Part shown: positions 3,960 to 59,068 of the stretch, piece by piece
Numbering within the stretch: the stretch's first letter is position 1
Layout: each line of letters opens with the position of its first letter
Origin: Burkholderiales bacterium
Lineage (GTDB): Bacteria; Pseudomonadota; Gammaproteobacteria; Burkholderiales; SG8-39
Length of the DNA stretch: 64,000 nucleotides
Assembly: GCA_040902335.1 (NCBI GenBank)
Contig: JBBDXL010000101.1
Coordinates: 24,579-88,578 of the forward strand
Direction of reading: 5' to 3'
The notes under the pieces: generated by a model
Database searches by the model: none
What the model was told of the DNA's origin: nothing
What the model saw: only the letters and a program-made list of their open reading frames with translations
Program-made: the position numbers and the translations under genes

Positions 3960-3973
3960 TTGATTTCAATCAA
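3960..3973. promoter_or_regulatory. FNR-type box TTGATTTCAATCAA (perfect consensus)
   Basis: Palindrome in the hemN / kinase divergent gap. The centre at 3966.5 is 42.5 bp from the hemN ATG 3924. Confidence 0.8.
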
Positions 3974-6329: not shown

Positions 6330-7070
6330 ATGCACGCTGTCACCGCCATTCACGCCGCGCCCGCATCGAAGAAGTTCGAAGTCACCTGCTCGAGCTGCAA
6401 CCTGCGCGAGATGTGCCTGCCCGCCGGGCTGTGCGCCGAGGACCTCGAGCGCATCGAGAACGTGGTCTACGCGCGCCGGCGCCTGAAGCGCGGCGAGCCG
6501 CTGTTCAATGCCGGGGACAGCTTCAGCGCGGTGTACGCCATCCGCAGCGGCTTCTTCAAGACCAGCCTGCTCGACCCCGACGGGCGCGAGCAAGTCACCG
6601 GCTTCTTCATGGGCGGGGAGCTGCTCGGCATGGACGGCATCGGCGGCGCGCACCACGGCACCGCCATCGCGCTCGAGGACAGCGAGGTGTGCGTGCTGCC
6701 CTACGCGCTGATCGAGGACCTGTCGCGCGAGATCCCGGCGCTGCAGCGCCAGCTGCACGCGGTGCTGGCGCGCGAGATCGCGCGCGACCACGGCGTGATG
6801 ATGCTGCTCGGCTCGATGCGCGCCGAGGAGCGCCTGGCGACGTTCCTGCTCAACCTGTCCAGGCGCTTCGTGCGCCGCGGCTACTCCTCGACCGAGTTCC
6901 ACCTGCGCATGACGCGCGACGAGATCGGCAGCTACCTCGGCCTGAAGCTGGAGACGGTGAGCCGGCTGTTCTCCGCGTTCCAGAAGGACGGCCTGATCGA
7001 GGTGCAGCAGAAGCACGTGCGCATCCGCGAAATCGAGGGCCTGGAGCGGGTGCTCGCGACGCGGCACTGA
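6330..7070 (+). CDS. fnr: FNR (Crp/Fnr family, [4Fe-4S] oxygen-sensing transcription factor)
   Basis: 246 aa. N-terminal CSSCNLREMC aligns with E. coli FNR C20/C23/C29 and DSEVCVLPY with C122. The recognition helix ETVSRLF matches E. coli ETISRLL. An AAGAGAGGA Shine-Dalgarno sequence lies upstream. Confidence 0.95.
   Translation: MHAVTAIHAAPASKKFEVTCSSCNLREMCLPAGLCAEDLERIENVVYARRRLKRGEPLFNAGDSFSAVYAIRSGFFKTSLLDPDGREQVTGFFMGGELLGMDGIGGAHHGTAIALEDSEVCVLPYALIEDLSREIPALQRQLHAVLAREIARDHGVMMLLGSMRAEERLATFLLNLSRRFVRRGYSSTEFHLRMTRDEIGSYLGLKLETVSRLFSAFQKDGLIEVQQKHVRIREIEGLERVLATRH

Positions 7071-21733: not shown

Positions 21734-21737
<4 letters not shown>
20745..21737 (-). CDS. 2-oxoacid dehydrogenase E1 alpha subunit (ThDP-binding)
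   Basis: [15 protein letters not shown]...YREHGHAL...[15 protein letters not shown]...[25 protein letters not shown] 21737 overlaps the ligase stop (GTGA). Confidence 0.95.
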
Positions 21738-23452
<1,715 letters not shown>

Positions 23453-23488
23453 CAAGCGCCCTGCCGACCTGCCCGCAACAATCCTGCA

Positions 23489-24016
23489 ATGGCCGAGTAC
23501 CCGCTGCACCTCGTGCGCCGGCGCACGCTCGCCGACGGCCGCACCGTGACCATCCGCCCGATCCGCGCCGAGGACGAGATGCCCACGCGCGACTTCTTCG
23601 AGCACCTGTCCGCGGAATCGCGGCAGATGCGCTTCATGAAGTTCGTAAGATCGGTCTCCGACAAGCTGATCCACTTCTTCACGCACGTCGACTACGAAAA
23701 GCACATGGCGTTCGTGTGCGAGGCCGAGCTCGAGGGCCGGCCGACGCTGGTGGGCGAGGCGCGCTACGTCGGCAACCCCGACGGCCGCAGCTGCGAGTTC
23801 GGCGTGGTGATCGCGGACGACTGGCGCCACAGCGGCATCGCCGGGCTGCTGATGGACGCGCTGATCCGCGCCGCGCGCGCCAACGGCATGGAGACCATGG
23901 AGGGTCTGGTGCTGCGCGAGAACCGCGAGATGATGAAGTTCGTGCGCGCGCTCGGCTTCGAGGCGACGGCCGATCCGGTAGAGTCCACCCTGATGCGAGC
24001 GGTGAAGAAGCTTTGA
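23489..24016 (+). CDS. GNAT N-acetyltransferase resembling the catalytic domain of Pat-type protein lysine acetyltransferases
   Basis: 175 aa: [31 protein letters not shown]...[30 protein letters not shown]. Confidence 0.8.
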
Positions 24017-28321: not shown

Positions 28322-28816
28322 CTAGCGGCTCCAGCTCACGCGCAGCAGGTTGTCGGCCTTGTTGTAGCGGTAGTCGAGCTCGCCCTTGTAGGCGTGCTGC
28401 AGCGCATCGCCGATGCGCCGCGCCAGATGCGCGCCGGTCGTGGTCACCAGGACGCCGCGACCCTCGGCCTCGATCGCCATGATGCGCTCGAGCGGGTGGC
28501 CGCGCTTCTCCGCCGCCTCGCAGCGGTGCACGCGCCCGAGGACTTCCTCGCGGTGCGCGTCGAAGAACTCCCCCTGCACCGAGACGTACCCGGCCGGAAA
28601 GCGGTCGCGGATGCGCTTGCACGCCGGGCAGCGCCCCTCGTGCGCGCCCGCCGGCGCCGCGCCCCAGCTCCAGCGCCCGCGGCGCCAGAGCGCGCCGCAG
28701 TCCTTGCAGCGCGTAGGCTCGGGAAGCTTCCTCCTGGACTTGTAGGTATCGTGCACCACCTGTTCGAGCAGCTGCTCCTGCCGGTGCGTGCGGACGTGCT
28801 TGCGCTGTGATTTCAT
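28322..28816 (-). CDS. conserved zinc-ribbon protein of unknown function
   Basis: ORF 28322..28864. CKDCG...CPACK four-Cys ribbon. I prefer ATG 28816 (MKSQRKHVRTH) because the longer start lies inside FNR box D. From memory only, it resembles proteins encoded in the B. cenocepacia low-oxygen-activated locus. Confidence 0.6.
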   Translation of the reverse strand: MKSQRKHVRTHRQEQLLEQVVHDTYKSRRKLPEPTRCKDCGALWRRGRWSWGAAPAGAHEGRCPACKRIRDRFPAGYVSVQGEFFDAHREEVLGRVHRCEAAEKRGHPLERIMAIEAEGRGVLVTTTGAHLARRIGDALQHAYKGELDYRYNKADNLLRVSWSR

Positions 28817-28850: not shown

Positions 28851-28864
28851 TTGACCTTGGTCAA
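28851..28864. promoter_or_regulatory. FNR-type box TTGACCTTGGTCAA
   Basis: Centre at 28857.5. It is 41.5 bp from ATG 28816 on the minus strand, with TACCTT at -12 to -7. It is 55.5 bp from ATG 28913 on the plus strand, which has an AAGGAGG Shine-Dalgarno sequence. Confidence 0.75.
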
Positions 28865-28912: not shown

Positions 28913-29287
28913 ATGGCACTGAACCGCAGGGAAACGATCGAGCTCGCCAGCGCGATCGAGGAGCGCCGCGAGGCGCTGGCCGCGGAAATCCGCCGCGAGG
29001 TGGCGCGCGCGCGCAACGAGCCGTTCGCGGAAGTCGCGGGCGCGGTGCACGACACCGGCGACGAGGCGCTCGCCGACCTGGTGGCCGACGTCGACAACGC
29101 GGAAGTGACGCGCGACCTCGCCGAGCTGCGCGAGCTGGAGGCCGCGCGCGCGCGCATCGCCGACGGCTCCTACGGCGTGTGCGCCGACTGCGGCGCCGAC
29201 ATTCCGGTGGCGCGCCTGCGCGCGCAGCTTGGGGCGCTGCGCTGCATCGCCTGCCAGGAGCGCCACGAGAAGACCTTCCGCAGCTAG
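28913..29287 (+). CDS. TraR/DksA-family C4 zinc-finger protein
   Basis: MALNRRE... from ATG 28913, with a strong Shine-Dalgarno sequence (caAGGAGGcacgATG). C-terminal CADCG...CIAC. Confidence 0.85.
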   Translation: MALNRRETIELASAIEERREALAAEIRREVARARNEPFAEVAGAVHDTGDEALADLVADVDNAEVTRDLAELRELEAARARIADGSYGVCADCGADIPVARLRAQLGALRCIACQERHEKTFRS

Positions 29288-30564
29288 GTGCCCCGGTCGA
29301 CCTCGTCGGCGAGCCGCCTGAGCGCCGGCGCGATCCGAACTTCGGGCGCGGGCAGCCGCGCGAGCTCCGCCAGGCAGCGCGCGCGCGCTTGTGCAAGCGT
29401 CGGCTGCGCGAGGCGGCGCCCGCCGCGCATCACGGGCTCGAGCAGCGCCGCGCCCGTCTGCGCGTCGCCTTCCAGCGTGATCACGTCGCGCGCGAAGCAC
29501 CCGCGCGCATCGAGCGAGCGCCAGACCTGCTTGCGCCCCGGCCAGGTCGCCTTGCCGGTGGAGCGCTTGCGCCGCGGCCGCCCCGCGTATTCCTGCAGCT
29601 TGTACACCGCGTCGAGATAGGGCGCGTCGGCCGAGGTGGTGAGGCTGGTGCCCACGCCGAAGCTGTCGATGGGTGCGCCCGCGGCGAGCAGCGCCGCGAT
29701 GCGCGCCTCGTCCAGGTTGCCGCTCGCGAAGATGATCGCCTCGCGCTGCCCGGCGTCGTCGAGGATCCGGCGCACCTTGCGCGACAGATCGTCCAGCTCG
29801 CCGCTGTCCAGGCGCACGCCCTTCAACTTTCCGGGCGTCGCCGCGGCGCGCCGCGCCCCCTGCAGCGTGTCGTAGGTGTCCACCAGCAGCACGGCGTTGT
29901 CCGGAAACGCGGCGGCGAAATGCGCGAAGGCCGCGGCTTCGCTCTCGTGCGCCTGGACGAAGGAGTGCGCCATGGTGCCGAAGACGGGGATGCCGAAGCG
30001 CGGCGCGGCGAGCGCGGTGGCGCTGCCGTCGAAGCCGGCGAGCCAGGCGGCGCGCGCGGCGTACAGGCCGGCTTCCGCGCCGTGCGCGCGGCGCAGCCCG
30101 AAGTCGATCAGCCCCTTGCCGGGCGCGGCGCGGCGCACGTGCGCCGCCTTCGAGGCGATCACGGTCTGGAAGTGAACCAGGTTGAGGAGCCGCGTCTCGG
30201 CGAGCTGCGCCTCGGGCATCGGCGCGGCCACGCGCAGGATCGGCTCGTCGGGGAAAAAGAGCGTCCCTTCCGGCATGGCGTGCACCTCGCCGGTGAAGCG
30301 CAGGCGCTCGAGGCGCGCGGCGAAGTCCGGCTTGAAGTGCCCCGAGCGCCCGATCCACTCCAGCTCCTCGGGCCCGAAGCGCAGGCCCTCCAGGTAGTCC
30401 AGCGCCTGCTCCAGCCCCGCCGCGACCAGGAACTCGCGCCCCGGCGGCAGCTTTCTGACAAAGAGCTCGAACACCGCGGTCTGCGTCATGTCCTGCTCGT
30501 AATAGGCCTGCAGCATGGTGAGCTGGTACAGGTCGGTGAGCAGCGGGCTCGCGTGCGCGTCCAT
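29284..30564 (-). CDS. pncB: nicotinate phosphoribosyltransferase family protein
   Basis: 426 aa. MDAHASPLLTDLYQLTMLQAYY, GTMAHSFVQAH, LRLDSG-like VRLDSGEL. Confidence 0.9.
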   Translation of the reverse strand: MDAHASPLLTDLYQLTMLQAYYEQDMTQTAVFELFVRKLPPGREFLVAAGLEQALDYLEGLRFGPEELEWIGRSGHFKPDFAARLERLRFTGEVHAMPEGTLFFPDEPILRVAAPMPEAQLAETRLLNLVHFQTVIASKAAHVRRAAPGKGLIDFGLRRAHGAEAGLYAARAAWLAGFDGSATALAAPRFGIPVFGTMAHSFVQAHESEAAAFAHFAAAFPDNAVLLVDTYDTLQGARRAAATPGKLKGVRLDSGELDDLSRKVRRILDDAGQREAIIFASGNLDEARIAALLAAGAPIDSFGVGTSLTTSADAPYLDAVYKLQEYAGRPRRKRSTGKATWPGRKQVWRSLDARGCFARDVITLEGDAQTGAALLEPVMRGGRRLAQPTLAQARARCLAELARLPAPEVRIAPALRRLADEVDRGT

Positions 30565-30597: not shown

Positions 30598-30611
30598 TTG
30601 ACGCAAGTCAA
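30598..30611. promoter_or_regulatory. FNR-type box TTGACGCAAGTCAA
   Basis: The centre at 30604.5 is 40.5 bp from the NAPRTase ATG 30564. TAGGGT lies at -12 to -7. Confidence 0.75.
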
Positions 30612-30670
30612 CGGCGCGTGCTGCGAACGCCGGAGGTCAGCGAGTGACCTGTTCGCCCGGCTTTTTTGCC

Positions 30671-30931
30671 CTAAACACGTTTGCGTTGCTTCTTTCTGGC
30701 GCCTGCGCTCCGGTAGCGCTTTGCCATGGCTGCTTTCTCCGCTTCTCTGCCTTTGGCGAGCTCGGTGACCCTCTTCAACTCGAACTCTCTTGCTTGCCTC
30801 CGTGCCGTCACCTCCAGCGCCTTTTCTTCCTCCGTAGGCGGATTCCAGTCGAGAAATTTCGGCCTCAGATTCTGAAAATAGGCGGTGGAGGATTGCTTGC
30901 CTCTCTCTGCTTTCGGCTTTTTGGCTTTCAT
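30671..30931 (-). CDS. hypothetical small Lys/Glu-rich protein
   Basis: 86 aa with atypical codons (AAA, AGA, GCA) in a low-GC patch. It has no recognisable domain. The overlapping + ORF 30644..31003 looks less protein-like. Confidence 0.35.
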   Translation of the reverse strand: MKAKKPKAERGKQSSTAYFQNLRPKFLDWNPPTEEEKALEVTARRQAREFELKRVTELAKGREAEKAAMAKRYRSAGARKKQRKRV

Positions 30932-31019
30932 CTTGGCTGCTTCCGGTCAGGACGCGCCCTCATGCCGGGATCTTCGCATGCCGGGCGGCGAAACCCCGGA
31001 TAGTGTGCGCCGCGTCGAA

Positions 31020-32508: not shown

Positions 32509-34212
32509 CTAGCCAGTCGGCCGCGCCAGCCAGCGCCTCACCTCCCCAAGCGGCCGCGCGTTGAGGACATCGCTATTCTCCAGCCACCCGCGCCGCGCCT
32601 GCCCCACTCCGTACCGCAGCACGTCGAACCCGTCCACCCCGTGCGCGTCCGAGCCGATGCTGACCAGCACGCCCTCGTCCTTGGCCATGCGGCAATGCAC
32701 GTCGTTCAGATCGAGCCGGTCGGGTTGCGCGTTCAATTCCAGCGCCACGCCCAGGCGCTTCGCCTTGCGCATCACCGCGAGCATGTCGAGCTCATACGCT
32801 TCGCGCTCGCCAATCAGCCGCCCCGTGGGGTGCGCGAGGATGGATACGTGCGGGTTGCACAGCGCCTTGAGAACGCGCGCGGTCTGCCGCGCGCGCGACA
32901 GGCCGAAACCGCCGTGCACCGCCGCAACCACCAAGTCGAGCTTCGCCAAAACGGAGTCCGGAAGGTCGAGACCGCCGTCCTCCAGGATGTCCACCTCGAT
33001 GCCCTTCAGCACTGTGATGCCGCGCAGATCCCGGTTCACGTCGTCGATTTCCGCGATCTGCTTTTCCAGGCGCCGCGGATCGAGCCCGTGCGCCATCGCC
33101 AGGCGCCGCGAATGGTCGGTGACGGCGAAGTACTCGAAGCCGCGCGAATGCGCCGCGAGCGCCATCTCGCGCACGGTGTTGCGCCCGTCGGTGGCGCTGG
33201 TGTGCGCGTGCAGGTCGCCGCGCAGGTCGGCAAGCGCCACCAGGCGTGGCAGCGCGCCGCGGCGCGCCGCCTCGAGCTCGCCCTGGTTCTCGCGCAGCTC
33301 CGGCTCGATGTAGGGCAGCCCGACCGCGGCGTAGACGGATTCCTCGGTCTTCCCCGCGACGCGCTTCTCGCCCCGCCACACCCCGTACTCGTTGATCTTC
33401 AGCCCGCGCGCGATGCCGAGCTTGCGCACCGCGATGTTGTGCGCCTTCGAGCCGGTGAAGTAATGCAGCGCCGCGCCGTAGCTCTCGCGCGGCACGACGC
33501 GCAGGTCGGCCTGGATGCCCGAGGCGAGCCGCACGCTGGAGCGCGTCGTGCCCTGGGCGAGGACTTCACGCACCTCAGGGTACTCGACGAAACGTGCGCT
33601 CACCTTTTCCGGCTGGTCGGAGACGACGAGGAAATCCAGGTCGCCGACCGTGTCCTTCCTCCTGCGGTAGCTTCCCGCGACCACCGCGCCCAGGTACTTC
33701 GCCAGCGGCTCGGCGTACTGCGCCGCGAGGGCGAGCTTGAAGCGCCGCGGCGCGGCGAGCTGCGCTTGCGCGGCGTCGACGATGCGCTGCGCCGTCTTCT
33801 CGCCGAACCCCGGCAGGGCGGGAAGCTTCCCCGCGCGCGCGGCGCGCCGCAGGTCTTCCAATGAGCCGATGCGGGCTGCGCGCAAGGCGCGCACGCGCTT
33901 CGGCCCGAGCCCGGGCAGCGCAAGCAGCGCGGTGATGCCGGCGGGGAACCTGCGGCGCAGCTGCGCGAGCAGCTTGCAGCTGCCGGTGGCCGCGATCTCG
34001 TGGATCTTGCCGTCGAGGTCCGCGCCGATTCCCGGGAGCTTGGGCAGCGCGGCGCCCTCGGCGAGCGTTGCGGCGAGGTCCAGGCTCAGGCCGCCCACCA
34101 CGCGCGCCGCGTTGCGGTAGGCGCGCACGCGGAACGGGTTCTCGTCGCCGAGCTCGAGCAGGTCGGCTATCTCCTCGAAGGCGGCGGCGATGTCCGCGTT
34201 GTGCACCGGCAT
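32509..34212 (-). CDS. polX: family X DNA polymerase with C-terminal PHP phosphoesterase domain
   Basis: 567 aa. HhH motifs (LPGIGADLDGKI, LPGLGPKRV), nucleotidyltransferase GSYRRRKDTVGDLDFLV, and PHP domain DLHAHTSATDG...AVTDHS...GSDAH. Confidence 0.9.
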   Translation of the reverse strand: MPVHNADIAAAFEEIADLLELGDENPFRVRAYRNAARVVGGLSLDLAATLAEGAALPKLPGIGADLDGKIHEIAATGSCKLLAQLRRRFPAGITALLALPGLGPKRVRALRAARIGSLEDLRRAARAGKLPALPGFGEKTAQRIVDAAQAQLAAPRRFKLALAAQYAEPLAKYLGAVVAGSYRRRKDTVGDLDFLVVSDQPEKVSARFVEYPEVREVLAQGTTRSSVRLASGIQADLRVVPRESYGAALHYFTGSKAHNIAVRKLGIARGLKINEYGVWRGEKRVAGKTEESVYAAVGLPYIEPELRENQGELEAARRGALPRLVALADLRGDLHAHTSATDGRNTVREMALAAHSRGFEYFAVTDHSRRLAMAHGLDPRRLEKQIAEIDDVNRDLRGITVLKGIEVDILEDGGLDLPDSVLAKLDLVVAAVHGGFGLSRARQTARVLKALCNPHVSILAHPTGRLIGEREAYELDMLAVMRKAKRLGVALELNAQPDRLDLNDVHCRMAKDEGVLVSIGSDAHGVDGFDVLRYGVGQARRGWLENSDVLNARPLGEVRRWLARPTG

Positions 34213-34247
34213 GGAAGCTCAGCGTGGCGCGGCGGCGCGGCGGCGTC

Positions 34248-34261
34248 TTGACCGGGATCAA
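34248..34261. promoter_or_regulatory. FNR-type box TTGACCGGGATCAA shared by divergent genes
   Basis: Centre at 34254.5. The polX ATG 34212 is at -42.5. ATG 34295 is at +40.5, with TAGCCT at -12 to -7. Confidence 0.75.
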
Positions 34262-34294
34262 ACCGGCCTGCCGGCGGCGCGCTAGCCTGCCTTC

Positions 34295-34612
34295 ATGAAA
34301 GCGATCGCGAAGCACGTCTTCCACCGCTGCGGCCGCGCGGTGAGCCGGCTCGTCGAGGCCGGTCTCGCACCTCGCCCGGAAATGCCGACAAGCGAGGCCG
34401 AGGTGCACGAATGGTGGCTGGTGTCGGCGCCGCTCGGCGCAAAGCTGCGCGAGCGCGGCGCGCCGGTGCTGGAGTTCTGCGAGCTCTCGATGTGGGGCCG
34501 CGCGGAAACCGGCAGCCCGCTGGAGAAGGACGCCGACCTCGCGGCGGCCCTCAGTGATCTTCGAGCCGCGGCACGCCCTCTTCGGCGGGCCCCCCGGTCT
34601 CGGAGTCGATGA
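34295..34612 (+). CDS. hypothetical protein
   Basis: 105 aa with no recognisable motif. Its 3' end overlaps the convergent ORF 34551..34832 by 62 nt. It is supported mainly by its position relative to box F. Confidence 0.4.
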   Translation: MKAIAKHVFHRCGRAVSRLVEAGLAPRPEMPTSEAEVHEWWLVSAPLGAKLRERGAPVLEFCELSMWGRAETGSPLEKDADLAAALSDLRAAARPLRRAPRSRSR

Positions 34613-38482: not shown

Positions 38483-38893
38483 TCAGGGCCTGAGCCAGTT
38501 CTGCACGGACAGGCCGGGGACGCGCCGGAATTCGCGCTCGTTGTTGGTGACGAGCGTCGCCCCGATGTGGCGGGCGTGCGCCGCGATCAGCAGATCGTAC
38601 GGCCCGATGGGTTTCCCGCGTGAAAGCAACGCGACCTTGATCACGGCGAAATCCTGGGTCGCGCCGCTCGGAAAATCATCCGCCTGGAGAAGCTCGAGCA
38701 GGCCGGCCAAGGTCTTTCTGTTCTCCGATCGAAATTCTCCGTTCTCGATCCCGAAGCGCAATTCCGCCAGCGTGACGGCCGAAAGCCGGACTTCCCCCGG
38801 CGAGCGCCCGGACATGCGTCGCGCGATCCTGTCGTAGTCCGGCTTACGGTTGACGAAGTGAACCAGGATGTCGGTGTCGAGCATCCAGATCAT
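38483..38893 (-). CDS. vapC: PIN-domain toxin VapC
   Basis: MIWMLDTDILV...TNNEREFRRVPGL. ATG 38893 overlaps the vapB stop (ATGA). Lower GC. Confidence 0.9.
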   Translation of the reverse strand: MIWMLDTDILVHFVNRKPDYDRIARRMSGRSPGEVRLSAVTLAELRFGIENGEFRSENRKTLAGLLELLQADDFPSGATQDFAVIKVALLSRGKPIGPYDLLIAAHARHIGATLVTNNEREFRRVPGLSVQNWLRP

Positions 38894-39111
38894 CGCCACT
38901 TCCGCCTCTGGTCCTTCGGCTGCCGACGCTCTATGCTGCCCTTGAAGCGGCCGACCACCGCCATGATCTGGTCGTAGGCGAGCTTCTTCGGCAGCAGCAG
39001 CACGCCACCGCCCGAGCGCTTGACAAGCACCTCGTCGGCGTCGAACCGGAACTCCTTCGGCAGGCGCACCGCCTGGCTGTTGCCGTGTTTGAATATCTTG
39101 GCAGTCTTCAT
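38890..39111 (-). CDS. vapB: AbrB/MazE-type antitoxin VapB
   Basis: 73 aa. MKTAKIFKHGNSQAVRLPKEFRF is the SpoVT/AbrB swapped-hairpin signature. Confidence 0.85.
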   Translation of the reverse strand: MKTAKIFKHGNSQAVRLPKEFRFDADEVLVKRSGGGVLLLPKKLAYDQIMAVVGRFKGSIERRQPKDQRRKWR

Positions 39112-39232: not shown

Positions 39233-40111
39233 GTGATTGAAGAACGGCTGCGCCGCCACGTGCAGACGCTCGCCGGCGAGATCGGCGAGCGCCACGTCTG
39301 GCGCCCGCGCGCGCTGCACGCGGCGGCCGACTACGTCCGCGGGGAGTTCGAGTCGCTCGGGTTCGCGGTCGCGCCCCAGGCCTACGAGGTCTACGGCGTG
39401 CGCTGCGAGAACCTCGAGGTGACGATCCCCGGTTCCAGCCGCGCAAGCGAAATCGTGCTCGCGGGCGCGCACTACGACACCGTCGAGGGCAGCCCCGGCG
39501 CCGACGACAATGCGAGCGGCGTCGCGGGACTGATCGAGATCGCGCGCGCGCTGCGCGGCAGCCACCCCGAGCGCACGCTGAAGCTGGTCGCGTTCGTGAA
39601 CGAGGAGGCGCCGTTCTTCTATTTCGGCGAGATGGGGAGCAAGGTGTATGCGCGTGCGGCGCGAAAACGCGGCGACGACATCCGCGTCATGCTCTCGCTG
39701 GAGATGCTCGGCTGCTACCGCGACGAGCCGGGCAGCCAGGCGTATCCGCCGTTGCTGAAATGGTTCTATCCCGAGCGCGGCAATTTCATCGCCTTCGTCT
39801 CCAACCTGCGCTCGCGCCGCGCGCTCCTCGAGGTCTCGAACGCCTTTCGCGCGCACTCCAGCTTTCCCGCCGAGCGGCTCGCCAGTCCCGGCTTCGTCCC
39901 CGGCGTGTCATGGAGCGACCAGCTCTCGTTCTGGCGCGCCGGCTACCCGGGCGTGATGGTCACCGACACGGCCTTCTACCGCTACCCGCACTACCACCGG
40001 CCCACCGACACGCCCGAGCGGCTGCACTATGCCGAGATGGCGCGGGTGGTCGAAGGGCTGGCGCGAGCGCTCGCCGCGCTCGCGGGCCGCGCGGTCAGTA
40101 CTTCCTCTTGA
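39233..40111 (+). CDS. M28-family metallopeptidase
   Basis: 292 aa, GTG start. GAHYDTVEGSPGADDNASGVAGLIEIAR, VAFVNEE, and SDQLSFW-type zinc ligand pattern. Confidence 0.8.
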   Translation: MIEERLRRHVQTLAGEIGERHVWRPRALHAAADYVRGEFESLGFAVAPQAYEVYGVRCENLEVTIPGSSRASEIVLAGAHYDTVEGSPGADDNASGVAGLIEIARALRGSHPERTLKLVAFVNEEAPFFYFGEMGSKVYARAARKRGDDIRVMLSLEMLGCYRDEPGSQAYPPLLKWFYPERGNFIAFVSNLRSRRALLEVSNAFRAHSSFPAERLASPGFVPGVSWSDQLSFWRAGYPGVMVTDTAFYRYPHYHRPTDTPERLHYAEMARVVEGLARALAALAGRAVSTSS

Positions 40112-41210
40112 GCTCCTCCGCGACCGACTCGATCTCGCGGCGGAACGTGGCGTTCACCTGCTCATAGCGGCGCTGCGCGAGCGCGTCGTCGTACACGCTG
40201 ATCACCTCGACGTCGTAGTAGGAGCGCAGCCCGCCGTTGAACTCGACCGCCATCTCGGCGGTGGACCCGGGCGGGCCTTCGATCCGGTATTCCGGAATGA
40301 TCGGGAACAGGCCGCGCTCCACGGCGATCCGCTGGCCGCGATCGGAGAGCAGGAATTCGACGAAGGCGCGCGCGGCCCTGGGGTGCCTGGCGCCCTTGAG
40401 GATCGCCGCCGGCCCGGCGGTGATCCATGCGGTCTTCGGGGCGACGTACCTGATGTCGAACCCGGCCAGGCGATCCTCGAAAGCGAAATAGCTCGGCACG
40501 GCGAAGCCCACGGCGAATTCGCCCCGCGCCACGACCGCCGGGACGTCGCGGCTGCGGGGAGCGAAGAACCCGGTATTCGCCGCCAGACGCCGCGCCCATT
40601 CCCAGCCCTTCGCCTCGCCGTCGCGCTGCAGGATGACCTCGTACGCCGCGTGGCTGCTCGACGAACGCGTCGGCGGCGCCTGCGCGATGTTGCCCTTGAG
40701 CCGCGGGTCCAGGAGATCGTCCCAGTCCCGCGGCGGCGGCACGCCGAGGCGTTGCAGCAGCCGCGGGTGATAGACGATGCCGGTGGATTCGAGCACGGTG
40801 CCGACCCAGAAGCCCTCGGGGTCCTTGAGCAGGATCGGCTTGGGCCTGCCGAGCTTCTCCGGGATCGCCGCCGTCACCGCCCCGGGCAACTCGAGCGGTG
40901 CAAGCAGGTTCTGCGACGCGAGCCGGTCATAGAGCGCGCTCTCGCCGCCCCAGAAAAGATCCGCCTGCGGCCGCCCGCTCCATTCGACGATGCGGCCGTA
41001 GGCGAGCGGCGTGCCGGCGGACAGCGCGCTCGTCCTGACGTCGACGTTCCACCGCTGCTTCGCGTGCTTCCTGAACTCGGCCAGCGCGGGGTCGGAAAAG
41101 CTCTTCCCCACCGGCGTGATGAGGACGAGCTCGTCCTCGATGGGCGGCGCCGCGGCGAGCCCCGGCGTGACGAGCATCGCGGCGAGCGCCGCTGCGGCGA
41201 CGACGCGCAT
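40095..41210 (-). CDS. ABC-transporter periplasmic substrate-binding protein (Fe3+/polyamine-type fold), orphan paralog
   Basis: Roughly three-quarters identical by eye to the SBP at 49823..50926 (LVLITPV...WNV.V.T.AL.AGTP.AYGRIVEW.GRP.AD.FWGGESAL). Start is ATG 41210 (MRVVAAAALAAML, signal peptide) or ATG 41219. Confidence 0.85.
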   Translation of the reverse strand: MRVVAAAALAAMLVTPGLAAAPPIEDELVLITPVGKSFSDPALAEFRKHAKQRWNVDVRTSALSAGTPLAYGRIVEWSGRPQADLFWGGESALYDRLASQNLLAPLELPGAVTAAIPEKLGRPKPILLKDPEGFWVGTVLESTGIVYHPRLLQRLGVPPPRDWDDLLDPRLKGNIAQAPPTRSSSSHAAYEVILQRDGEAKGWEWARRLAANTGFFAPRSRDVPAVVARGEFAVGFAVPSYFAFEDRLAGFDIRYVAPKTAWITAGPAAILKGARHPRAARAFVEFLLSDRGQRIAVERGLFPIIPEYRIEGPPGSTAEMAVEFNGGLRSYYDVEVISVYDDALAQRRYEQVNATFRREIESVAEELKRKY

Positions 41211-41244
41211 GAAACGCATGCTGGCGCGCGCGCTGCGGGCCGGC

Positions 41245-41258
41245 TTGACGCAGATCAA
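41245..41258. promoter_or_regulatory. FNR-type box TTGACGCAGATCAA shared by divergent genes
   Basis: Centre at 41251.5. ATG 41210 is at -41.5 on the minus strand and ATG 41292 is at +40.5 on the plus strand. Confidence 0.75.
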
Positions 41259-41291
41259 CAACGGACGCCATGGCGATGGCCCAATGCAGGC

Positions 41292-41615
41292 ATGACCTCC
41301 GCCGACCCGAAGCTCATCGACGCCGTATGGCGGCACGGGCGCGCCATGCCCGGCGCCGACCCCGCGCACTGGCGCCAGGATGCCTGCGGCGCCTGGATGC
41401 GGCGCGAGCAGTGCGGCCACGAGCAAGCCGAGTTCGGCTGGAAGCTGGAGAAGGTGTCCGCCGGCGGCCCCGACAGCGCCGAGAACCTGCGGCCCTTCCA
41501 CCGCAGCAACGGCTACGACGTCGCCAACGGCCAATCACACTGCGCAGTCACCGCCGATCGCTCCAATCTTCCGGCGGAGAAATACGCGATGCCGCCGCGC
41601 AACCGCCCGGCCTAG
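41292..41615 (+). CDS. small HNH-like protein with a degenerate catalytic motif
   Basis: 107 aa: ...DACGAWMRREQCGHEQAEFGWKLEKVSAGGPDSAENLRPFHRSNGYD. It has the layout of short HNH nucleases (GWEIDH...GG.D...NL.PLH..N), but EK replaces the DH dyad. Confidence 0.5.
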   Translation: MTSADPKLIDAVWRHGRAMPGADPAHWRQDACGAWMRREQCGHEQAEFGWKLEKVSAGGPDSAENLRPFHRSNGYDVANGQSHCAVTADRSNLPAEKYAMPPRNRPA

Positions 41616-41626
41616 GCACCATTGTC

Positions 41627-41640
41627 TTGACTTACGTCAA
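41627..41640. promoter_or_regulatory. FNR-type box TTGACTTACGTCAA
   Basis: The centre at 41633.5 is 67.5 bp upstream of ATG 41701, which has an AGGAG Shine-Dalgarno sequence. Confidence 0.7.
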
Positions 41641-41700
41641 AGGGGGCGGCGCGGCGCGGCGGCATGCTTGGCGCGTCAGCCACCCAGGAGACCAAACGCC

Positions 41701-42250: not shown

Positions 42251-42490
42251 CTAGTCGGGGCGGCTCTCGCCCTTGCGTACCCAGACCCCGCGCTCGGCGC
42301 ACTGCAGCACCTCGCTGCCGCTGCGCACGTACTCGCCGAGGGCGAAGGCCTCGCCGTTGAAGTAGCAGGCGGGGGCTTCGGTCTCCAGGCCCGGCGTGAC
42401 CTCGTCTGCGTCGTACTCCACTTCGCCGATGATCGGGGAGTTCTTCAGCTCGGGGTCGGGCGCGCCGACTTGGGGCAACGAGTCTTTCAT
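42251..42490 (-). CDS. hypothetical small protein
   Basis: 79 aa from ATG 42490, with a GGGAGA Shine-Dalgarno sequence: MKDSLPQVGAPDPELKNSPIIGEVEYDADEV... Box L is centred 59.5 bp upstream. Confidence 0.5.
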   Translation of the reverse strand: MKDSLPQVGAPDPELKNSPIIGEVEYDADEVTPGLETEAPACYFNGEAFALGEYVRSGSEVLQCAERGVWVRKGESRPD

Positions 42491-42542: not shown

Positions 42543-42556
42543 TTGACTTGCGTCAA
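42543..42556. promoter_or_regulatory. FNR-type box TTGACTTGCGTCAA
   Basis: Centre at 42549.5. The ftsH ATG 42592 is at +42.5, with TAGTGT at -13 to -8. ATG 42490 is at -59.5 on the minus strand and has a Shine-Dalgarno sequence. Confidence 0.75.
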
Positions 42557-42591: not shown

Positions 42592-44385
42592 ATGGAAACG
42601 CGCACGCGCTTCAACGTCGCCTACCTCGTGTTCGCGCTGGTCGCGCTCATGCTCGTGCAGCGCTGGTGGCAGGAGGCGCAGTCGATCGACGTCGTGCCCT
42701 ACAGCGAGTTCGAGCAAATGCTCGCGGAGGGCCGCATCGCGGAGATCACCGTGGGCGAACGCCATATCGTCGGCAAGCTTAAGCAGCCCGAGGGGCGCAA
42801 GACCACGGTGGCGGCGAACCGGGTGGAGCCCGAGCTCGCCGCGCGGCTCGAGAAGTACGGCGTGCCCTACACGCGCCAGGTCGAGAGCACGGTCCTGCGG
42901 GACCTGCTCTCGTGGGTGGTGCCCGCGCTCGTCTTCTTCGGTGTGTGGATGCTGCTCGCGCGGCGCTTCGCCGGCCAGCAGGGCCTGGGCGGCTTCATGA
43001 GCATCGGCAAGAGCCGCGCCAAGGTTTACGTGGAACGCCAGACCGGCGTCACCTTCGCCGACGTGGCGGGCGTCGACGAGGCGAAGGCCGAGCTGCAAGA
43101 GGTGATCGAGTTCCTCAAGGACCCGGCCAAGTACGGGCGGCTCGGCGCGCGCGTGCCGAAGGGCATCCTGCTGGTGGGGCCGCCGGGCACCGGCAAGACG
43201 CTGCTCGCGCGCGCGGTGGCGGGCGAGGCGGGCGTGCCCTTCTTCTCCATCTCCGGCGCCGAGTTCGTGGAGATGTTCGTCGGCGTGGGCGCGGCGAGGG
43301 TCCGGGATCTGTTCGATCAGGCGCGGCAGAAGGCGCCCGCCATCATCTTCATCGACGAGCTGGACGCGCTCGGGCGCGCGCGCGGCACCTACGGCCTGGG
43401 CGGGCACGACGAGAAGGAGCAGACGCTGAACCAGCTCCTTTCCGAGCTCGACGGCTTCGATCCGTCCACCGGGGTGGTGCTGCTCGCCGCCACCAACCGG
43501 CCCGAGATCCTCGACCCGGCGCTGCTGCGCGCGGGGCGTTTCGATCGCCAGGTGCTCGTGGACCGCCCCGACAAGAAGGGGCGCATCCAGATCCTCGAGG
43601 TGCACGCGAAGAAGATCCGGCTCGCCGCGGGCGTCTCCATCGAGCAGGCGGCGGCGCTCACGCCCGGCTTCTCCGGCGCCGACCTCGCCAACCTGGTGAA
43701 CGAGGCGGCGCTCCTCGCCACGCGCCGCGGCGCCGACGCGGTGTCGCTCGAGGACTTCACCCTGGCGGTGGAGCGCATCGTCGCAGGGCTGGAGAAGAAG
43801 AGCCGCGTGCTGAACGAGACCGAGCGGCGTGTCGTTGCGCACCACGAGATGGGCCACGCGCTGGTCGCCATGGCGCTGCCGGGAACCGACCCGGTGCACA
43901 AGGTGTCCATCATCCCGCGCGGCGTGGGCGCGCTCGGCTACACCATCCAGCGCCCGACCGAGGACCGCTTCCTGATGACGCGCGAGGAGCTGGAGAACAA
44001 GATGGCGGTGCTGCTCGGCGGCCGCGCCGCCGAGGAAGTGTGCTTCGGGCGGCTGTCGACGGGAGCCGCCGACGATCTCGTCAAGGTGGCGAACATCGCG
44101 CGCGGCATGGTGATGCGCTACGGCATGGTCGAGTCGCTCGGCCCCCTCGCCTACGAGGAGGAGCGCGCGCCGTTTCTCGGCGGCGTGATGGCGCCCGCGC
44201 CGCGCGAGTACAGCGAGCAGACCGCGCGCGAGATCGACGTCGCGGTGCGCGAGATCGTGAAGGCGGCGCACGACAAGGCGTTCGGCCTCCTCACGCGCGA
44301 CAAGGCGCTGCTCGAGCGCGGCGCGGCGCTGCTGCTGCAGAAGGAGACGCTCGCCGAGGACGAGCTCGCCGCATTGAGAAGGTAA
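42592..44385 (+). CDS. ftsH: ATP-dependent zinc metalloprotease FtsH
   Basis: Two TM segments, Walker A GPPGTGKT, Walker [12 protein letters not shown] region, and zinc site HEMGHAL. Start is ATG 42592 or GTG 42583. Confidence 0.95.
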
Positions 44386-57563: not shown

Positions 57564-58394
57564 TCAGTGCGACATCAGCACCGGCACCGTCATCGCCTCG
57601 AGCAGGGTGCGCGTCGCCCCGCCGAGCACCATCTCGCGCACGCGCGCGTGCCCGTAGGCGCCCATGACGATCAGGTCCGCGGCGACGTCGGCGGCGCGCG
57701 ACAGGATCTGCGAGCCGACGTCGTAGCCCGCGCCGCTCTGGCGCGCCACCGTCACCTTCACGCCGTGGCGCGCGAGGAACAGGCCGACGTCGGCCCCGGG
57801 CTGCTCGCCGTGATGGCGCTGGCCCTTCTCCGGGTCGAAAGCGCACACCTCGACCGCCGCGGCGCGCTGCAGGAACGGCAGCGCGTCGGTGACCGCGCGC
57901 GCCGCCTCGCGCCCCGCGTCCCAGGCGACGAGCACGCGCTTGCCGAGCGCGGGGAAACGCCCCGCGTAGGGCACGAACAGCACCGGGCGGCCGGCGGAGA
58001 ACACCAGCTCGTCGGCGAGGCCGCGCAGGCCGCCTTCGTCCCCGGCCTCGGGCTGGCCCGCCACCACCAGGTCGGCGTAGCGCGCGGACAGGCGCACGGC
58101 CGCCGCCGGGTCGGCCTGCGAGCTGCGCCATTCGGCGCGCCCGCCGAAGCGCCGCGAGGCGTCGCGAAAGCGGCGCTCGGCCTCGCCCAGCATCTCGGCG
58201 TTGCGCTTCTCGAGCAAGTCGCGCAGCAGCGGCCCGCCCTCGGCCAGCGCGTACGACGGCAGCCGCGGGACACCGGGTGCGAACAGCCCGACGACGTGGG
58301 CGTCGAACTCGTCGGCGAGGCTGCAGGCAAGCTCGAGCCGCTCCGTGCTGCGCGGCTGGTGATCGAGGTGCACGAGGATCGTCTTGTAGGTCAT
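57564..58394 (-). CDS. universal stress protein, tandem UspA domains
   Basis: 276 aa. MTYKTILVHLDH...LVVAGQ...VMGAYGHARVREMVLGGATRTLLEAMTVPVLMSH. GGAGAG Shine-Dalgarno sequence. Confidence 0.9.
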   Translation of the reverse strand: MTYKTILVHLDHQPRSTERLELACSLADEFDAHVVGLFAPGVPRLPSYALAEGGPLLRDLLEKRNAEMLGEAERRFRDASRRFGGRAEWRSSQADPAAAVRLSARYADLVVAGQPEAGDEGGLRGLADELVFSAGRPVLFVPYAGRFPALGKRVLVAWDAGREAARAVTDALPFLQRAAAVEVCAFDPEKGQRHHGEQPGADVGLFLARHGVKVTVARQSGAGYDVGSQILSRAADVAADLIVMGAYGHARVREMVLGGATRTLLEAMTVPVLMSH

Positions 58395-58445: not shown

Positions 58446-58459
58446 TTGACTTAGGTCAA
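58446..58459. promoter_or_regulatory. FNR-type box TTGACTTAGGTCAA
   Basis: Centre at 58452.5. The USP ATG 58394 is at -58.5 and has a Shine-Dalgarno sequence. ATG 58493 is at +40.5, with TAGGCT at -12 to -7. Confidence 0.75.
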
Positions 58460-58492: not shown

Positions 58493-59068
58493 ATGCCGTG
58501 CGCGATGCGCTGTGCGTTGATCCTGGCGGCAGCCGCGCTTTGCGGCTGCCAGTCGCTGCTGCCGCGGGCGGACCTCGCCACGCAGCAGGCCTGGGGCGAC
58601 TTCGAGGAGGCGCGCGCGGCCATCGCGCGCATCGCGCCGAAGCAGACCACGCGCACCGAGCTGTCGGCCGCGGGCATCGATCCCCTGAAGAACGCCTCGG
58701 TCTCCATCCGAGGCCTGCCCGACGTCATGCAGCGCTTCACCGTGGGCACGGCGGTCGACGCGCAGGACCTCGACCCCGGCATTCGCGAGTGCCTGGCCGC
58801 AGGCAATGCCTGCACCGGCTACGCGATCCTCGTGCGACGCAGCGACCGCCGGAGGATCGGCAGCTTTTGGGCCGACATCTTCAACTTCCGCCGTGAAACC
58901 GACGTCACCGGCTGGACCTTCAACGCGCTGATCCTGTTCGTCGGCGACACCGTGGTGTACACGGTGCACGGCGGCCAGCCGCGCATCTACGAGAAGGAAG
59001 TGAGCCGCAACCCGCTCGGTCCGCTGCAAGGCCTGGGCGAGGCGGCGGGCTCGGCGCTCACGCGCTAG
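58493..59068 (+). CDS. putative lipoprotein of unknown function
   Basis: 191 aa. The signal peptide with a lipobox-like sequence is ALILAAAALCGCQ. The alternative start is ATG 58505. Confidence 0.6.
   Translation: MPCAMRCALILAAAALCGCQSLLPRADLATQQAWGDFEEARAAIARIAPKQTTRTELSAAGIDPLKNASVSIRGLPDVMQRFTVGTAVDAQDLDPGIRECLAAGNACTGYAILVRRSDRRRIGSFWADIFNFRRETDVTGWTFNALILFVGDTVVYTVHGGQPRIYEKEVSRNPLGPLQGLGEAAGSALTR

What the first reader, a model, noticed from the sequence alone, without database searches (positions are those of the whole stretch)
41210..41292. Single FNR palindromes flanked by two divergent start codons 82-83 bp apart (bidirectional leaderless promoters)
Three boxes each sit midway between divergent start codons:
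- 23407 <- box 23442..23455 -> 23489, 82 bp apart (AMP-ligase / GNAT operons).
- 34212 <- box 34248..34261 -> 34295, 83 bp apart (polX / orf).
- 41210 <- box 41245..41258 -> 41292, 82 bp apart (orphan SBP / HNH-like).

A symmetric dimer bound at one palindrome could activate RNA polymerase on either face. The entire intergenic region would then be just the two core promoters.

The repeated 82-83 bp spacing is seen directly in the sequence and is unlikely to be coincidental.
Basis: seen in the sequence. Interest (0 to 1): 0.7.

Follow-up and report, generated by a model that had tools for sequence, protein, structure and literature searches.

The report
One FNR site, two leaderless genes
In this uncultured soil betaproteobacterium, a single binding site for the oxygen-sensing regulator FNR sits midway between pairs of back-to-back genes whose start codons lie where transcription should begin, so an 81-84 bp gap appears to hold two complete low-oxygen promoters and no ribosome-binding leaders; each ingredient is already known, but this compact, recurring combination had not been described in the papers I could search.

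Summary
All three boxes are real FNR palindromes. All six flanking start codons match NCBI's own annotation of the same metagenome-assembled genome (MAG).

The spacing is a rule, not a coincidence. In the window and about 90 related loci, ATG codons opening long ORFs pile up 40.5-42.5 nt from the box centre (41 observed, 5 expected, P~1e-23). A -10-like hexamer (nAnnnT) starts 29-30 nt from the centre in 170 of 302 box directions. The ATG follows the hexamer by 6-8 nt, with C at -1 and A at +1. This is class II FNR promoter geometry with transcription starting at, or 1-2 nt before, the start codon.

Eighteen boxes have such start codons on both sides, 81-84 bp apart. They include orthologous acyl-CoA ligase/GNAT and PolX/orf105 pairs. 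Three more window boxes are also bidirectional, with a short Shine-Dalgarno leader on one side.

The window encodes a true FNR (Cys20/23/29/121, E-SR recognition helix). It is a relative of the Burkholderia lxa low-oxygen locus.

A shared CRP/FNR site for divergent promoters, and leaderless mRNAs, are both known. What looks new is their systematic combination across a hypoxia regulon. No transcription starts have been mapped.

The parts
41245..41258 (.). FNR box TTGACGCAGATCAA (centre 41251.5), shared by the divergent solute-binding protein (SBP) and orf107 promoters
   Evidence: The identical box heads the homologous promoter in L081.
41208..41210 (-). ATG of the solute-binding protein gene (40095-41210), 41.5 nt from the box centre; predicted transcription start at this A or 1 nt upstream
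   Evidence: The identical 371-aa protein is in the NCBI annotation. An alternative ATG lies at 41219.
41218..41223 (-). -10 hexamer CAGCAT of the SBP promoter, 29-34 nt from the box centre; it contains the alternative ATG at 41219
41280..41285 (+). -10 region CCCAAT of the orf107 promoter, 29-34 nt from the centre; it has T at -7 but lacks the usual A at -11
   Evidence: Homologous CTCAAT/TCCAAT hexamers occur in L081, L010 and L007.
41292..41615 (+). orf107, a conserved 104-107 aa protein of unknown function; its ATG at 41292 is 40.5 nt from the box centre
   Evidence: 168 homologs, mostly 103-108 aa. No Pfam match. Identical to the NCBI protein MEX2240487.1.
34248..34261 (.). FNR box TTGACCGGGATCAA (centre 34254.5), shared by the PolX and orf105 promoters
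   Evidence: Orthologous boxes lie upstream of polX in L006, L010, L024, L026, L030 and L078.
34210..34226 (-). PolX promoter core: -10 hexamer CACGCT (34221-34226) and ATG (34210-34212), 42.5 nt from the centre; the gene is 32509-34212
   Evidence: An in-frame stop lies just upstream. Identical to NCBI MEX2240475.1.
34283..34297 (+). orf105 promoter core: -10 hexamer TAGCCT (34283-34288) and ATG (34295-34297), 40.5 nt from the centre; the gene is 34295-34612
   Evidence: Orthologs lie divergent from polX in L006 and L010. Identical to NCBI MEX2240476.1.
23442..23455 (.). FNR box TTGACCTGCATCAA (centre 23448.5), shared by the acyl-CoA ligase and GNAT promoters
   Evidence: The orthologous pair in L007 has box 6419 with starts 81 bp apart.
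23405..23419 (-). Acyl/acetate-CoA ligase promoter core: -10 hexamer CAGCAT (23414-23419) and GTG start (23405-23407), 41.5 nt from the centre; the gene is 21734-23407
   Evidence: The L007 ortholog has ATG at the same codon. Identical to NCBI MEX2240463.1.
23477..23491 (+). GNAT promoter core: -10 hexamer AACAAT (23477-23482) and ATG (23489-23491), 40.5 nt from the centre; the gene is 23489-24016
   Evidence: Identical to NCBI MEX2240464.1.
28851..28864 (.). FNR box with -10 hexamers on both sides: leaderless BCAM0308-family gene (28322-28816, ATG at 41.5 nt) and DksA-like gene (28913-29287) with a ~14-nt leader and AAGGAGG
42543..42556 (.). FNR box with -10 hexamers on both sides: leaderless FtsH (42592-44385, ATG at 42.5 nt) and orf79 (42251-42490) with a ~18-nt leader and GGGAGA
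58446..58459 (.). FNR box with -10 hexamers on both sides: leaderless orf191 (58493-59068, ATG at 40.5 nt) and universal stress protein (57564-58394) with a short leader and GGAGAG
   Evidence: NCBI calls orf191 four residues shorter.
3960..3973 (.). FNR box with leaderless HemN (2527-3924, ATG at 42.5 nt) on its left
30598..30611 (.). FNR box with leaderless nicotinate phosphoribosyltransferase (29284-30564, ATG at 40.5 nt) on its left
6330..7070 (+). fnr gene: CRP/FNR-family regulator with Cys20, 23, 29 and 121 and an E-x-x-S-R recognition helix; the likely protein that binds the boxes

Best explanation
Each of the three regions is a compact bidirectional, FNR-activated class II promoter pair that produces leaderless mRNAs in both directions.

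**Proposed steps**
1. Under low oxygen, the FNR encoded at 6330-7070 assembles its [4Fe-4S] cluster, dimerises and binds the TTGAY-N4-ATCAA palindrome.
2. The site is symmetric. A -10 hexamer lies 29-34 or 30-35 nt from the centre on five of the six flanks; the orf107 flank has the off-consensus CCCAAT there. RNA polymerase can therefore be recruited on either face, with the box half-site taking the place of a -35 element.
3. Transcription starts 6-8 nt after the hexamer. That is at the A (or G) of the start codon, or 1-2 nt before it.
4. The mRNAs have no Shine-Dalgarno sequence and must be translated as leaderless messages.

The 81-84 bp spacing is simply twice the class II distance of about 41 nt.

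**Shown here:** the sites, their geometry, the -10 signal, the start codons, their conservation, and the presence of an FNR gene.

**Inferred:** the actual transcription starts, FNR dependence, firing in both directions, and the mode of translation.
For: - **Box density.** 14 boxes in the window against 0.16 expected.
- **Start codon position.** ATGs opening long ORFs peak at 40.5-42.5 nt from the box centre. In the related loci this is 41 events against 5 expected, P = 8.6e-24.
- **Promoter logo.**
  - 72 non-redundant promoters give A at -11 in 61%, T at -7 in 68%, C at -1 in 62% and A at +1.
  - In the 40.5-nt class (n = 35), A at -11 is 76% and T at -7 is 91%.
- **-10 position.** An nAnnnT hexamer starts 29 nt (116 times) or 30 nt (54 times) from the centre in 302 box directions. 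Background is about 8 per offset.
- **Both-sided cases.** 36 of 151 boxes have the hexamer on both sides. 18 boxes have start codons on both sides, 81-84 bp apart.
- **Conserved pairs.** The ligase/GNAT pair recurs in L007 with starts 81 bp apart. The PolX/orf105 pair recurs in L006 (84 bp) and L010 (81 bp).
- **Independent gene calls.**
  - Gene calls from other sources place starts at the predicted positions, for example L081 at 1336(-) and 1420(+).
  - NCBI's annotation agrees for all six window genes.
- **Leadered controls.** The non-leaderless sides of boxes 28851, 42543 and 58446 show the same -10 position, followed by a 14-18 nt leader with AAGGAGG, GGGAGA or GGAGAG. The box-to-hexamer rule therefore holds whether or not a leader is present.
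- **Regulator.** The FNR has the E. coli-type cysteines and recognition helix.
- **No stand-alone promoter.** No sigma-70 consensus promoter is found in 41000-41700, as expected for activator-dependent promoters.
- **Precedent.** One CRP-family dimer can serve divergent promoters: 11 E. coli cases and the El-Robh & Busby model study, cited in PMC3105977, and Cmr in M. tuberculosis, PMC5499769.
Against: - No transcription start, expression or binding data exist for this organism. Everything rests on sequence geometry.
- orf107's -10 (CCCAAT) lacks the normally critical A at position 2.
- The ligase uses GTG, which is a poorer leaderless start in E. coli (my own knowledge).
- The SBP has an upstream in-frame ATG at 41219. 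It is conserved in a 90%-identical ortholog that has no FNR box (L087).
- The specific SBP/orf107 pairing was not found in any other genome retrieved.
- Boxes with -10 hexamers on both sides are no more frequent than independence predicts (36 observed, 46 expected). Bidirectionality itself may not be selected.
- Two polymerases may not fit on both faces at once, so the two directions might compete (inference).
Confidence: 0.8

Rival explanations
1. The boxes are real FNR sites, but each serves only one direction at a time or at all. The second flank's ~41-nt spacing arises because genomes in this lineage pack many independent leaderless FNR promoters, some of which happen to sit back to back. 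The opposite gene would then be driven weakly, or from another promoter.
For: Both-sided -10 hexamers are not enriched over independence (36 observed, 46 expected). orf107's -10 is off-consensus. The SBP ortholog L087 is expressed without any FNR box.
Against: - Five of the six flanks in the three regions carry an nAnnnT hexamer at the canonical offset.
- The two-sided layout is conserved for two orthologous pairs at 61-77% protein identity.
- An 82-bp gap has no room for another promoter, and no sigma-70 consensus promoter is present.
Confidence: 0.12
2. The genes are not leaderless. Transcription starts further upstream, inside the neighbouring divergent gene, and the start codons near the box are mis-assigned or coincidental.
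For: Start codons are hard to assign in 70% GC genomes. The SBP has two candidate ATGs, and gene callers give homologs of 371-388 aa.
Against: - The ATG peak at 40.5-42.5 nt needs no gene calling and has P~1e-23.
- The -10 logo and the C(-1)/A(+1) signal are anchored on these ATGs.
- The PolX and orf105 starts are bounded by upstream stops.
- The PolX HHH_8 domain begins at residue 4.
- NCBI and JGI calls agree with these starts.
Confidence: 0.04
3. The palindromes are bound by another CRP/FNR-family member, such as a Dnr/NNR- or FixK-type protein controlled by the adjacent PAS kinase and LuxR-type regulator, rather than by the Fe-S FNR. The geometry would be the same but the signal different.
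For: A FixLJ-like pair lies next to fnr at 3999-5866. TTGA-N6-TCAA is recognised by many family members (established knowledge). In B. cenocepacia the regulator of the lxa motif was left open (PMC3721108).
Against: - The only CRP/FNR-family gene seen in the window has the full FNR cysteine set and the E-x-x-S-R helix that reads TTGAT.
- The gene content (HemN, stress proteins) fits oxygen control.
- The rest of the genome was not examined.
Confidence: 0.15

Closest known systems
Class II FNR/CRP-dependent promoters (site centred near -41.5, overlapping the -35 region), as in E. coli
   Same: The palindrome is TTGAY-N4-ATCAA. The -10 hexamer lies 29-34 nt from the site centre, which puts the site at about -40.5 to -42.5. 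No -35 element is present. An FNR with the E. coli cysteine pattern and recognition helix is encoded nearby.
   Different: The start codon sits at the predicted transcription start, so there is no 5' leader or ribosome-binding site. That holds for about 37% of the 167 predicted promoters with a canonical -10.
Divergent promoters activated from one CRP-family site: 11 natural E. coli CRP cases and the El-Robh & Busby 2002 model system (cited in PMC3105977), M. tuberculosis Cmr at cmr/rv1676 (PMC5499769), and, from my memory only, the Paracoccus denitrificans nirI-nirS region with one NNR box at -41.5 for both starts (Saunders et al. 1999; the reference is listed in PMC8139620, but I could not read the paper)
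   Same: One symmetric dimer site lies midway between two divergent promoters, each with class II geometry.
   Different: Here both transcripts are also leaderless, so the whole intergenic region shrinks to 81-84 bp between start codons. The layout recurs at 18 sites across related genomes rather than at a single locus.
The lxa (low-oxygen-activated) locus and lxa motif of Burkholderia cenocepacia (Sass et al. 2013, PMC3721108)
   Same: - Both are clusters of universal stress proteins, an FtsH-type protease, nucleotide-salvage enzymes and many hypothetical proteins.
- Both carry a TGA-N6-TCA inverted repeat at many intergenic points: 17 in lxa, 14 in this window.
- The window's orf164 is named 'BCAM0308 family protein' by NCBI.
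   Different: - The lxa paper does not mention leaderless transcripts or the motif-to-start distance.
- B. cenocepacia has only 72 + 42 leaderless transcripts genome-wide (PMC4603805).
- In the lxa-like locus of cultured Ralstonia wenshanensis, the boxes lie 68-150 bp from the nearest annotated starts, which is the conventional leadered layout.
Leaderless mRNAs, with the -10 element directly upstream of the start codon (common in Actinobacteria and Deinococcus-Thermus, rarer in Proteobacteria)
   Same: The -10 hexamer is at -12 to -7 from the ATG, there is no Shine-Dalgarno sequence, and ATG is strongly preferred.
   Different: - Here the leaderless promoters are activator-dependent and concentrated in one regulon.
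- 15 of 45 TAnnnT-type leaderless starts in the sampled loci carry an FNR box. That sample is centred on the polX neighbourhood, so it is biased.

Membership tests
Class II FNR-dependent promoter | FNR consensus palindrome TTGAT-N4-ATCAA | tested here: met
   The three boxes match TTGAY-N4-ATCAA exactly. The window has 14 TTGA-N6-TCAA boxes against 0.16 expected.
Class II FNR-dependent promoter | Site centred about 41.5 bp upstream of the transcription start, overlapping the -35 region | tested here: inconclusive
   No transcription starts are mapped. As a proxy, the -10-like hexamer starts 29-30 nt from the centre in 170 of 302 box directions, which implies a start near 41 nt. This is strongly suggestive but indirect.
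Class II FNR-dependent promoter | A cognate FNR with an N-terminal Cys cluster and an E-x-x-S-R recognition helix is encoded in the genome | tested here: met
   The protein from 6330-7070 matches cNMP_binding and HTH_Crp_2 and has Cys20, 23, 29, 121 and E208/S211/R212. The comparison with E. coli FNR residues is from my own knowledge.
Class II FNR-dependent promoter | Transcription depends on FNR and on anoxia | not testable with these tools
   This needs an fnr mutant, reporter assays or in vitro transcription.
Leaderless mRNA | The 5' end of the transcript coincides with the start codon (0 to a few nt of leader) | tested here: inconclusive
   There are no 5'-end data. As a proxy, the ATG lies 6-8 nt after the -10 hexamer, with C at -1 and A at +1.
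Leaderless mRNA | No Shine-Dalgarno sequence upstream of the start codon | tested here: met
   In all six flanks the 12-14 nt before the start are taken up by the -10 region and its downstream spacer, and none contains GGAG, GAGG or AGGA. Leadered neighbours in the same window do carry AAGGAGG, GGGAGA or GGAGAG.
Leaderless mRNA | AUG as the 5'-terminal start codon | tested here: met
   Five of the six starts are ATG. The ligase has GTG in the window but ATG in the L007 ortholog.
Divergent promoters sharing one CRP/FNR-family site | A single activator site between two divergently transcribed genes, equidistant from both starts | tested here: met
   There is one box per region. The distances are 41.5/40.5, 42.5/40.5 and 41.5/40.5 nt. 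Fifteen further cases occur in relatives.
Divergent promoters sharing one CRP/FNR-family site | Both promoters are activated by the protein bound at that one site | not testable with these tools
   This needs dual reporters or in vitro transcription with box mutants.
lxa-type low-oxygen regulon (Burkholderia) | A gene cluster rich in universal stress proteins, FtsH-type protease, BCAM0308-family protein and nucleotide-salvage enzymes, with a TGA-N6-TCA motif at many intergenic points | tested here: met
   NCBI names orf164 'BCAM0308 family protein'. The window has 14 boxes. The lxa locus is described in PMC3721108.
lxa-type low-oxygen regulon (Burkholderia) | Induction by low oxygen | not testable with these tools
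   No expression data exist for this MAG.
Symmetric -10 bidirectional promoters (divergent starts about 18 bp apart sharing one -10 region; Warman et al. 2021, recalled from memory) | Two opposed starts arising from one shared, symmetric -10 element | tested here: not met
   Each direction here has its own -10 hexamer, about 58 bp from the other, and the starts are 81-84 bp apart.

The most novel reading that the evidence does not exclude
In this uncultured Burkholderiales lineage, a large share of the FNR/hypoxia (lxa-like) regulon has been converted to leaderless expression. Oxygen limitation would then switch on both a set of promoters and a distinct, Shine-Dalgarno-independent mode of translation suited to dormant or hibernating ribosomes.

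The 'FNR box + -10 + ATG' unit would behave as a portable module that is repeatedly re-fused to different genes. For example, the window's orf107 promoter is homologous to the leadered CBS-orf107 promoter of L081, but here the ATG sits at the transcription start.
Probability: 0.3. Interest if true: 0.75.

Novelty: new variant of a known kind. Interest (0 to 1): 0.55.

Why it matters
If the prediction holds, these 81-84 bp regions would be close to the shortest layout the class II geometry allows for a regulated bidirectional pair. They hold one activator site and two -10 elements, with both start codons at the transcription starts.

**Testable case.** They give a clean natural system for asking whether one FNR dimer can drive two polymerases, and whether the two directions compete.

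**Translation under hypoxia.** About 37% of the predicted FNR promoters in this lineage are leaderless. A cultured relative, Ralstonia, uses ordinary leaders for a similar locus. This suggests a lineage-specific link between oxygen limitation and leaderless translation, which has otherwise been discussed mainly for mycobacteria.

**Annotation.** The 40.5-42.5 nt rule fixes start codons in these high-GC metagenome genomes. The SBP is an example, where it favours 41210 over 41219.

**Engineering.** The 82-bp unit could serve as a compact oxygen-responsive bidirectional part.

Tried and rejected
1. **A sigma-70 consensus scan of 41000-41700** found no promoter. This is uninformative for activator-dependent promoters.
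2. **An Rfam scan of 40900-41700** found nothing, so no known RNA element explains the region.
3. **Cultured-organism comparisons through the plasmid collection.**
   - The Burkholderia stagnalis 'plasmid' (really a chromosome, L090) had one strict box and no ~41-nt pattern.
   - The Azospirillum locus L092 had no strict box.
   - Ralstonia wenshanensis L091 had six boxes, all leadered.
   - The architecture could therefore not be shown in a cultured strain.
4. **Conservation of the specific SBP/orf107 pair.**
   - It was not found in any genome retrieved.
   - orf107 homologs follow a CBS gene (L081, L084), have their own box at 42.5 nt (L083), or share a box with a leaderless CheR gene at 64.5 nt (L086).
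   - SBP orthologs follow a 171-aa gene, a tRNA or other genes.
5. **orf119 (30644-31003)** was rejected as a divergent partner of the NAPRTase box. Its third-position GC is 0.57, so it does not look like a gene.
6. **Enrichment of two-sided boxes.** None was found (36 observed, 46 expected).
7. **Literature.**
   - The supplement of the lxa paper, the El-Robh & Busby paper and the Saunders 1999 paper are not held.
   - The last two are cited second-hand or from memory.
   - Searches combining 'leaderless' with FNR-family names returned no paper describing this architecture. The library is incomplete.
Full report
**1. The observation**

They are TTGACCTGCATCAA at 23442-23455, TTGACCGGGATCAA at 34248-34261 and TTGACGCAGATCAA at 41245-41258. 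The 64-kb window (70.7% GC) holds 14 TTGA-N6-TCAA boxes against 0.16 expected from shuffles.

The flanking start codons are 82, 83 and 82 bp apart. The box centre lies 41.5/40.5, 42.5/40.5 and 41.5/40.5 nt from them.

I checked the starts independently.
- A codon-bias gene call agrees for five of the six. For the solute-binding protein (SBP) it picked an upstream in-frame TTG at 41258.
- Exact-sequence look-up shows that NCBI's annotation of the same metagenome-assembled genome (MAG) has proteins identical from first to last residue for all six genes. The genome is labelled 'Burkholderiales bacterium', and the contig is 126,836 bp.
- The PolX and orf105 starts are also bounded by in-frame stops a few codons upstream.
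- The acyl-CoA ligase's GTG aligns to an ATG in its ortholog in L007.

**2. The spacing is a rule**

I fetched 80 loci around polX orthologs from other genomes. Almost all are uncultured Burkholderiales or Betaproteobacteria. Without any gene calling, I counted ATGs that open ORFs of at least 80 codons at each distance from every box centre.

Both the window and the loci show one sharp peak at 40.5-42.5 nt. In the window it covers 10 of 28 box directions. In the loci it gives 41 events against 1.66 per offset elsewhere, Poisson P = 8.6e-24.

Aligning 72 non-redundant examples on the ATG gives a -10 element at -12 to -7, with A at -11 in 61% and T at -7 in 68%. It also gives G at -6, C at -1 and A at +1. 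In the 40.5-nt class, A at -11 reaches 76% and T at -7 reaches 91%.

Ignoring start codons altogether, an nAnnnT hexamer begins 29 nt (116 cases) or 30 nt (54 cases) from the centre in 302 box directions. Background is about 8 per offset.

This is the geometry of a class II FNR promoter. The hexamer is fixed relative to the box, and the start codon sits 6-8 nt after it. Transcription is therefore predicted to begin at the start codon or 1-2 nt before it.

**3. Both directions**

All three regions in the finding follow the rule on both sides.

| Gene | -10 hexamer | Window coordinates |
|---|---|---|
| Acyl-CoA ligase | CAGCAT | 23414-23419 |
| GNAT | AACAAT | 23477-23482 |
| PolX | CACGCT | 34221-34226 |
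| orf105 | TAGCCT | 34283-34288 |
| SBP | CAGCAT | 41218-41223 |
| orf107 | CCCAAT | 41280-41285 |

The orf107 hexamer is off-consensus because it lacks the A at position 2. The same CxCAAT type recurs in homologous promoters.

Across the window and relatives:
- 36 of 151 boxes carry -10-like hexamers on both sides.
- 18 boxes have start codons on both sides, 81-84 bp apart.
- These include the orthologous ligase/GNAT pair in L007 (81 bp) and the PolX/orf105 pairs in L006 (84 bp) and L010 (81 bp).
- One case in L081 has third-party gene calls exactly at the predicted positions.

Three more window boxes (28851, 42543, 58446) also have -10 hexamers on both sides. One side of each is leaderless. 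The other has a 14-18 nt leader with a clear Shine-Dalgarno sequence. This is a useful internal control, because the box-to-hexamer rule holds whether or not a leader follows.

Two-sided boxes are not more frequent than independence predicts (36 observed, 46 expected). The two-sided layout therefore looks like a consequence of a symmetric site in compact intergenic DNA, not a separately selected trait.

**4. Context**

The window encodes a CRP/FNR-family protein at 6330-7070. It has Cys20, 23, 29 and 121 and an E-x-x-S-R recognition helix, the hallmarks of oxygen-sensing FNR. The comparison with E. coli residues is from my own knowledge. The gene lies next to a PAS histidine kinase and a LuxR-type response regulator.

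Box-associated genes include:
- HemN, universal stress proteins and FtsH;
- PolX, RtcB and archease;
- nicotinate phosphoribosyltransferase, PRPP synthetase and a DksA-like protein;
- a protein that NCBI names 'BCAM0308 family'.

This is a relative of the lxa low-oxygen-activated locus of Burkholderia cenocepacia. That locus carries a TGA-N6-TCA motif at 17 intergenic points (PMC3721108).

**5. The focal region, 41210-41292**

orf107 is a real, conserved family. It has 168 homologs, mostly 103-108 aa, all hypothetical, from Betaproteobacteria MAGs. That supports 41292 as its start.

The SBP has two in-frame ATGs.
- Only 41210 is compatible with an FNR-driven transcript, because 41219 lies inside the -10 hexamer.
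- NCBI also uses 41210.
- A 90%-identical ortholog with no FNR box keeps both ATGs (L087). The assignment is therefore likely but not certain.

The SBP/orf107 pairing is not conserved elsewhere.

The window's orf107 promoter is homologous to the promoter of a CBS-orf107 operon in L081. The two share an identical box, a CxCAAT hexamer and GyAGGC after it. In L081 a leader with GGAGGA follows. In the window the orf107 ATG sits at that position.

**6. How general is this?**

Leaderless genes are a general feature of these genomes. TAnnnT peaks at -13/-12 before the ATGs of long ORFs (45 cases against about 5 per offset), and 15 of these carry an FNR box. Many polX orthologs that lack a box have a TAnAAT hexamer 6-7 nt before the ATG.

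Of 167 predicted FNR promoters with a canonical -10, 62 (37%) are leaderless.

By contrast, B. cenocepacia has only 72 + 42 leaderless transcripts genome-wide (PMC4603805). In the lxa-like locus of cultured Ralstonia wenshanensis, the boxes lie 68-150 bp from the nearest annotated starts.

**7. Comparison with what is known**

- Class II FNR promoters are textbook knowledge.
- One CRP-family dimer activating divergent promoters is documented. There are 11 E. coli cases and the El-Robh & Busby model study (via PMC3105977), and Cmr in M. tuberculosis (PMC5499769).
- From memory only, the Paracoccus nirI-nirS region has one NNR box at -41.5 for both starts.
- Leaderless mRNAs are also well known.

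What I did not find described is the combination. Here both divergent transcripts are leaderless, so the start codons are 81-84 bp apart. The layout recurs across a hypoxia regulon in one lineage. I rate it a new variant of a known kind.

**8. Verdict**

My confidence in the mechanism is about 0.8, short of certainty because no transcription starts, binding or expression data exist.

Interest is 0.55. It is a tidy, testable and apparently undescribed architecture, but each of its components is established.

Noticed in passing
window:1-64000: The whole window is an lxa-like low-oxygen gene cluster. It holds FNR, a PAS kinase with a LuxR-type regulator, HemN, hemerythrin, four universal stress proteins, a P-type ATPase, FtsH, PspC, PolX, RtcB with archease, NAPRTase, PRPP synthetase, a LOG-family protein, trehalose-related enzymes and a BCAM0308-family protein. 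There are 14 FNR boxes.
   Followed up: partly
window:41292-41615: orf107 belongs to a conserved family of 103-108 aa proteins with 168 homologs and no Pfam match, seen only in Betaproteobacteria/Burkholderiales MAGs. It is usually linked to FNR boxes and often follows a CBS-domain gene. Its function is unknown.
   Followed up: partly
window:41225-41300 versus L081:2390-2520: The window's orf107 promoter is homologous to the leadered CBS-orf107 promoter of L081, with an identical box and a similar -10. The CBS gene and its leader are absent in the window, and the orf107 ATG sits at the predicted transcription start. This looks like a promoter-gene fusion by deletion.
   Followed up: partly
L012, L016, L018-L021, L025, L057, L061, L064, L072-L074 (upstream of polX): Many polX orthologs without an FNR box have a TAnAAT-type hexamer 6-7 nt before the ATG, for example CAATAAT-N6-ATG and TACAAT-N6-ATG in the Gallionella and related loci L057, L061, L064 and L072-L074. 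polX therefore appears to be leaderless across several betaproteobacterial lineages.
   Followed up: partly
window:16750-19750: This is a lower-GC island (0.60-0.65 against about 0.70) carrying an Eco57I-like methyltransferase ORF (16974-18689). It lies between the E2 gene (15808-16953) and the E1 beta/alpha genes (19795-21737) of a 2-oxoacid dehydrogenase cluster. It is probably a horizontally acquired insertion. FNR box 17001-17014 lies at its edge.
   Followed up: partly
window:50984-50997, 52984-52997, 53288-53301, 41627-41640: Four boxes do not fit the ~41-nt rule. Those near the RtcB/archease operon lie 64-125 nt from starts. The box before the TPP enzyme is 34.5 nt from ATG 53329. The box at 41627 is 30.5 or 67.5 nt from candidate starts. 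They may be leadered promoters, repression sites or cases of mis-called starts.
   Followed up: no
window:38483-39111: A PIN-domain gene (38483-38899) and a small upstream ORF (38890-39111) look like a VapBC-type toxin-antitoxin pair embedded in the cluster.
   Followed up: no
window:40095-41210 and 49823-50926: There are two paralogous Fe3+-type solute-binding proteins. One stands alone under the bidirectional FNR promoter. The other heads an ABC transporter operon (permease 47051-48727, ATPase 48724-49800) with a box 64.5 nt upstream.
   Followed up: no
L091 (Ralstonia wenshanensis p56D2, 87345-127833): A cultured Ralstonia carries an lxa-like locus (FtsH, PolX, HPF, Hsp20, PRPP synthetase, thymidine phosphorylase, a BCAM0308 homolog) on a 1.8-Mb replicon. 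Its FNR boxes lie 68-150 bp from the nearest annotated starts. It could serve as a leadered comparison strain for experiments.
   Followed up: partly
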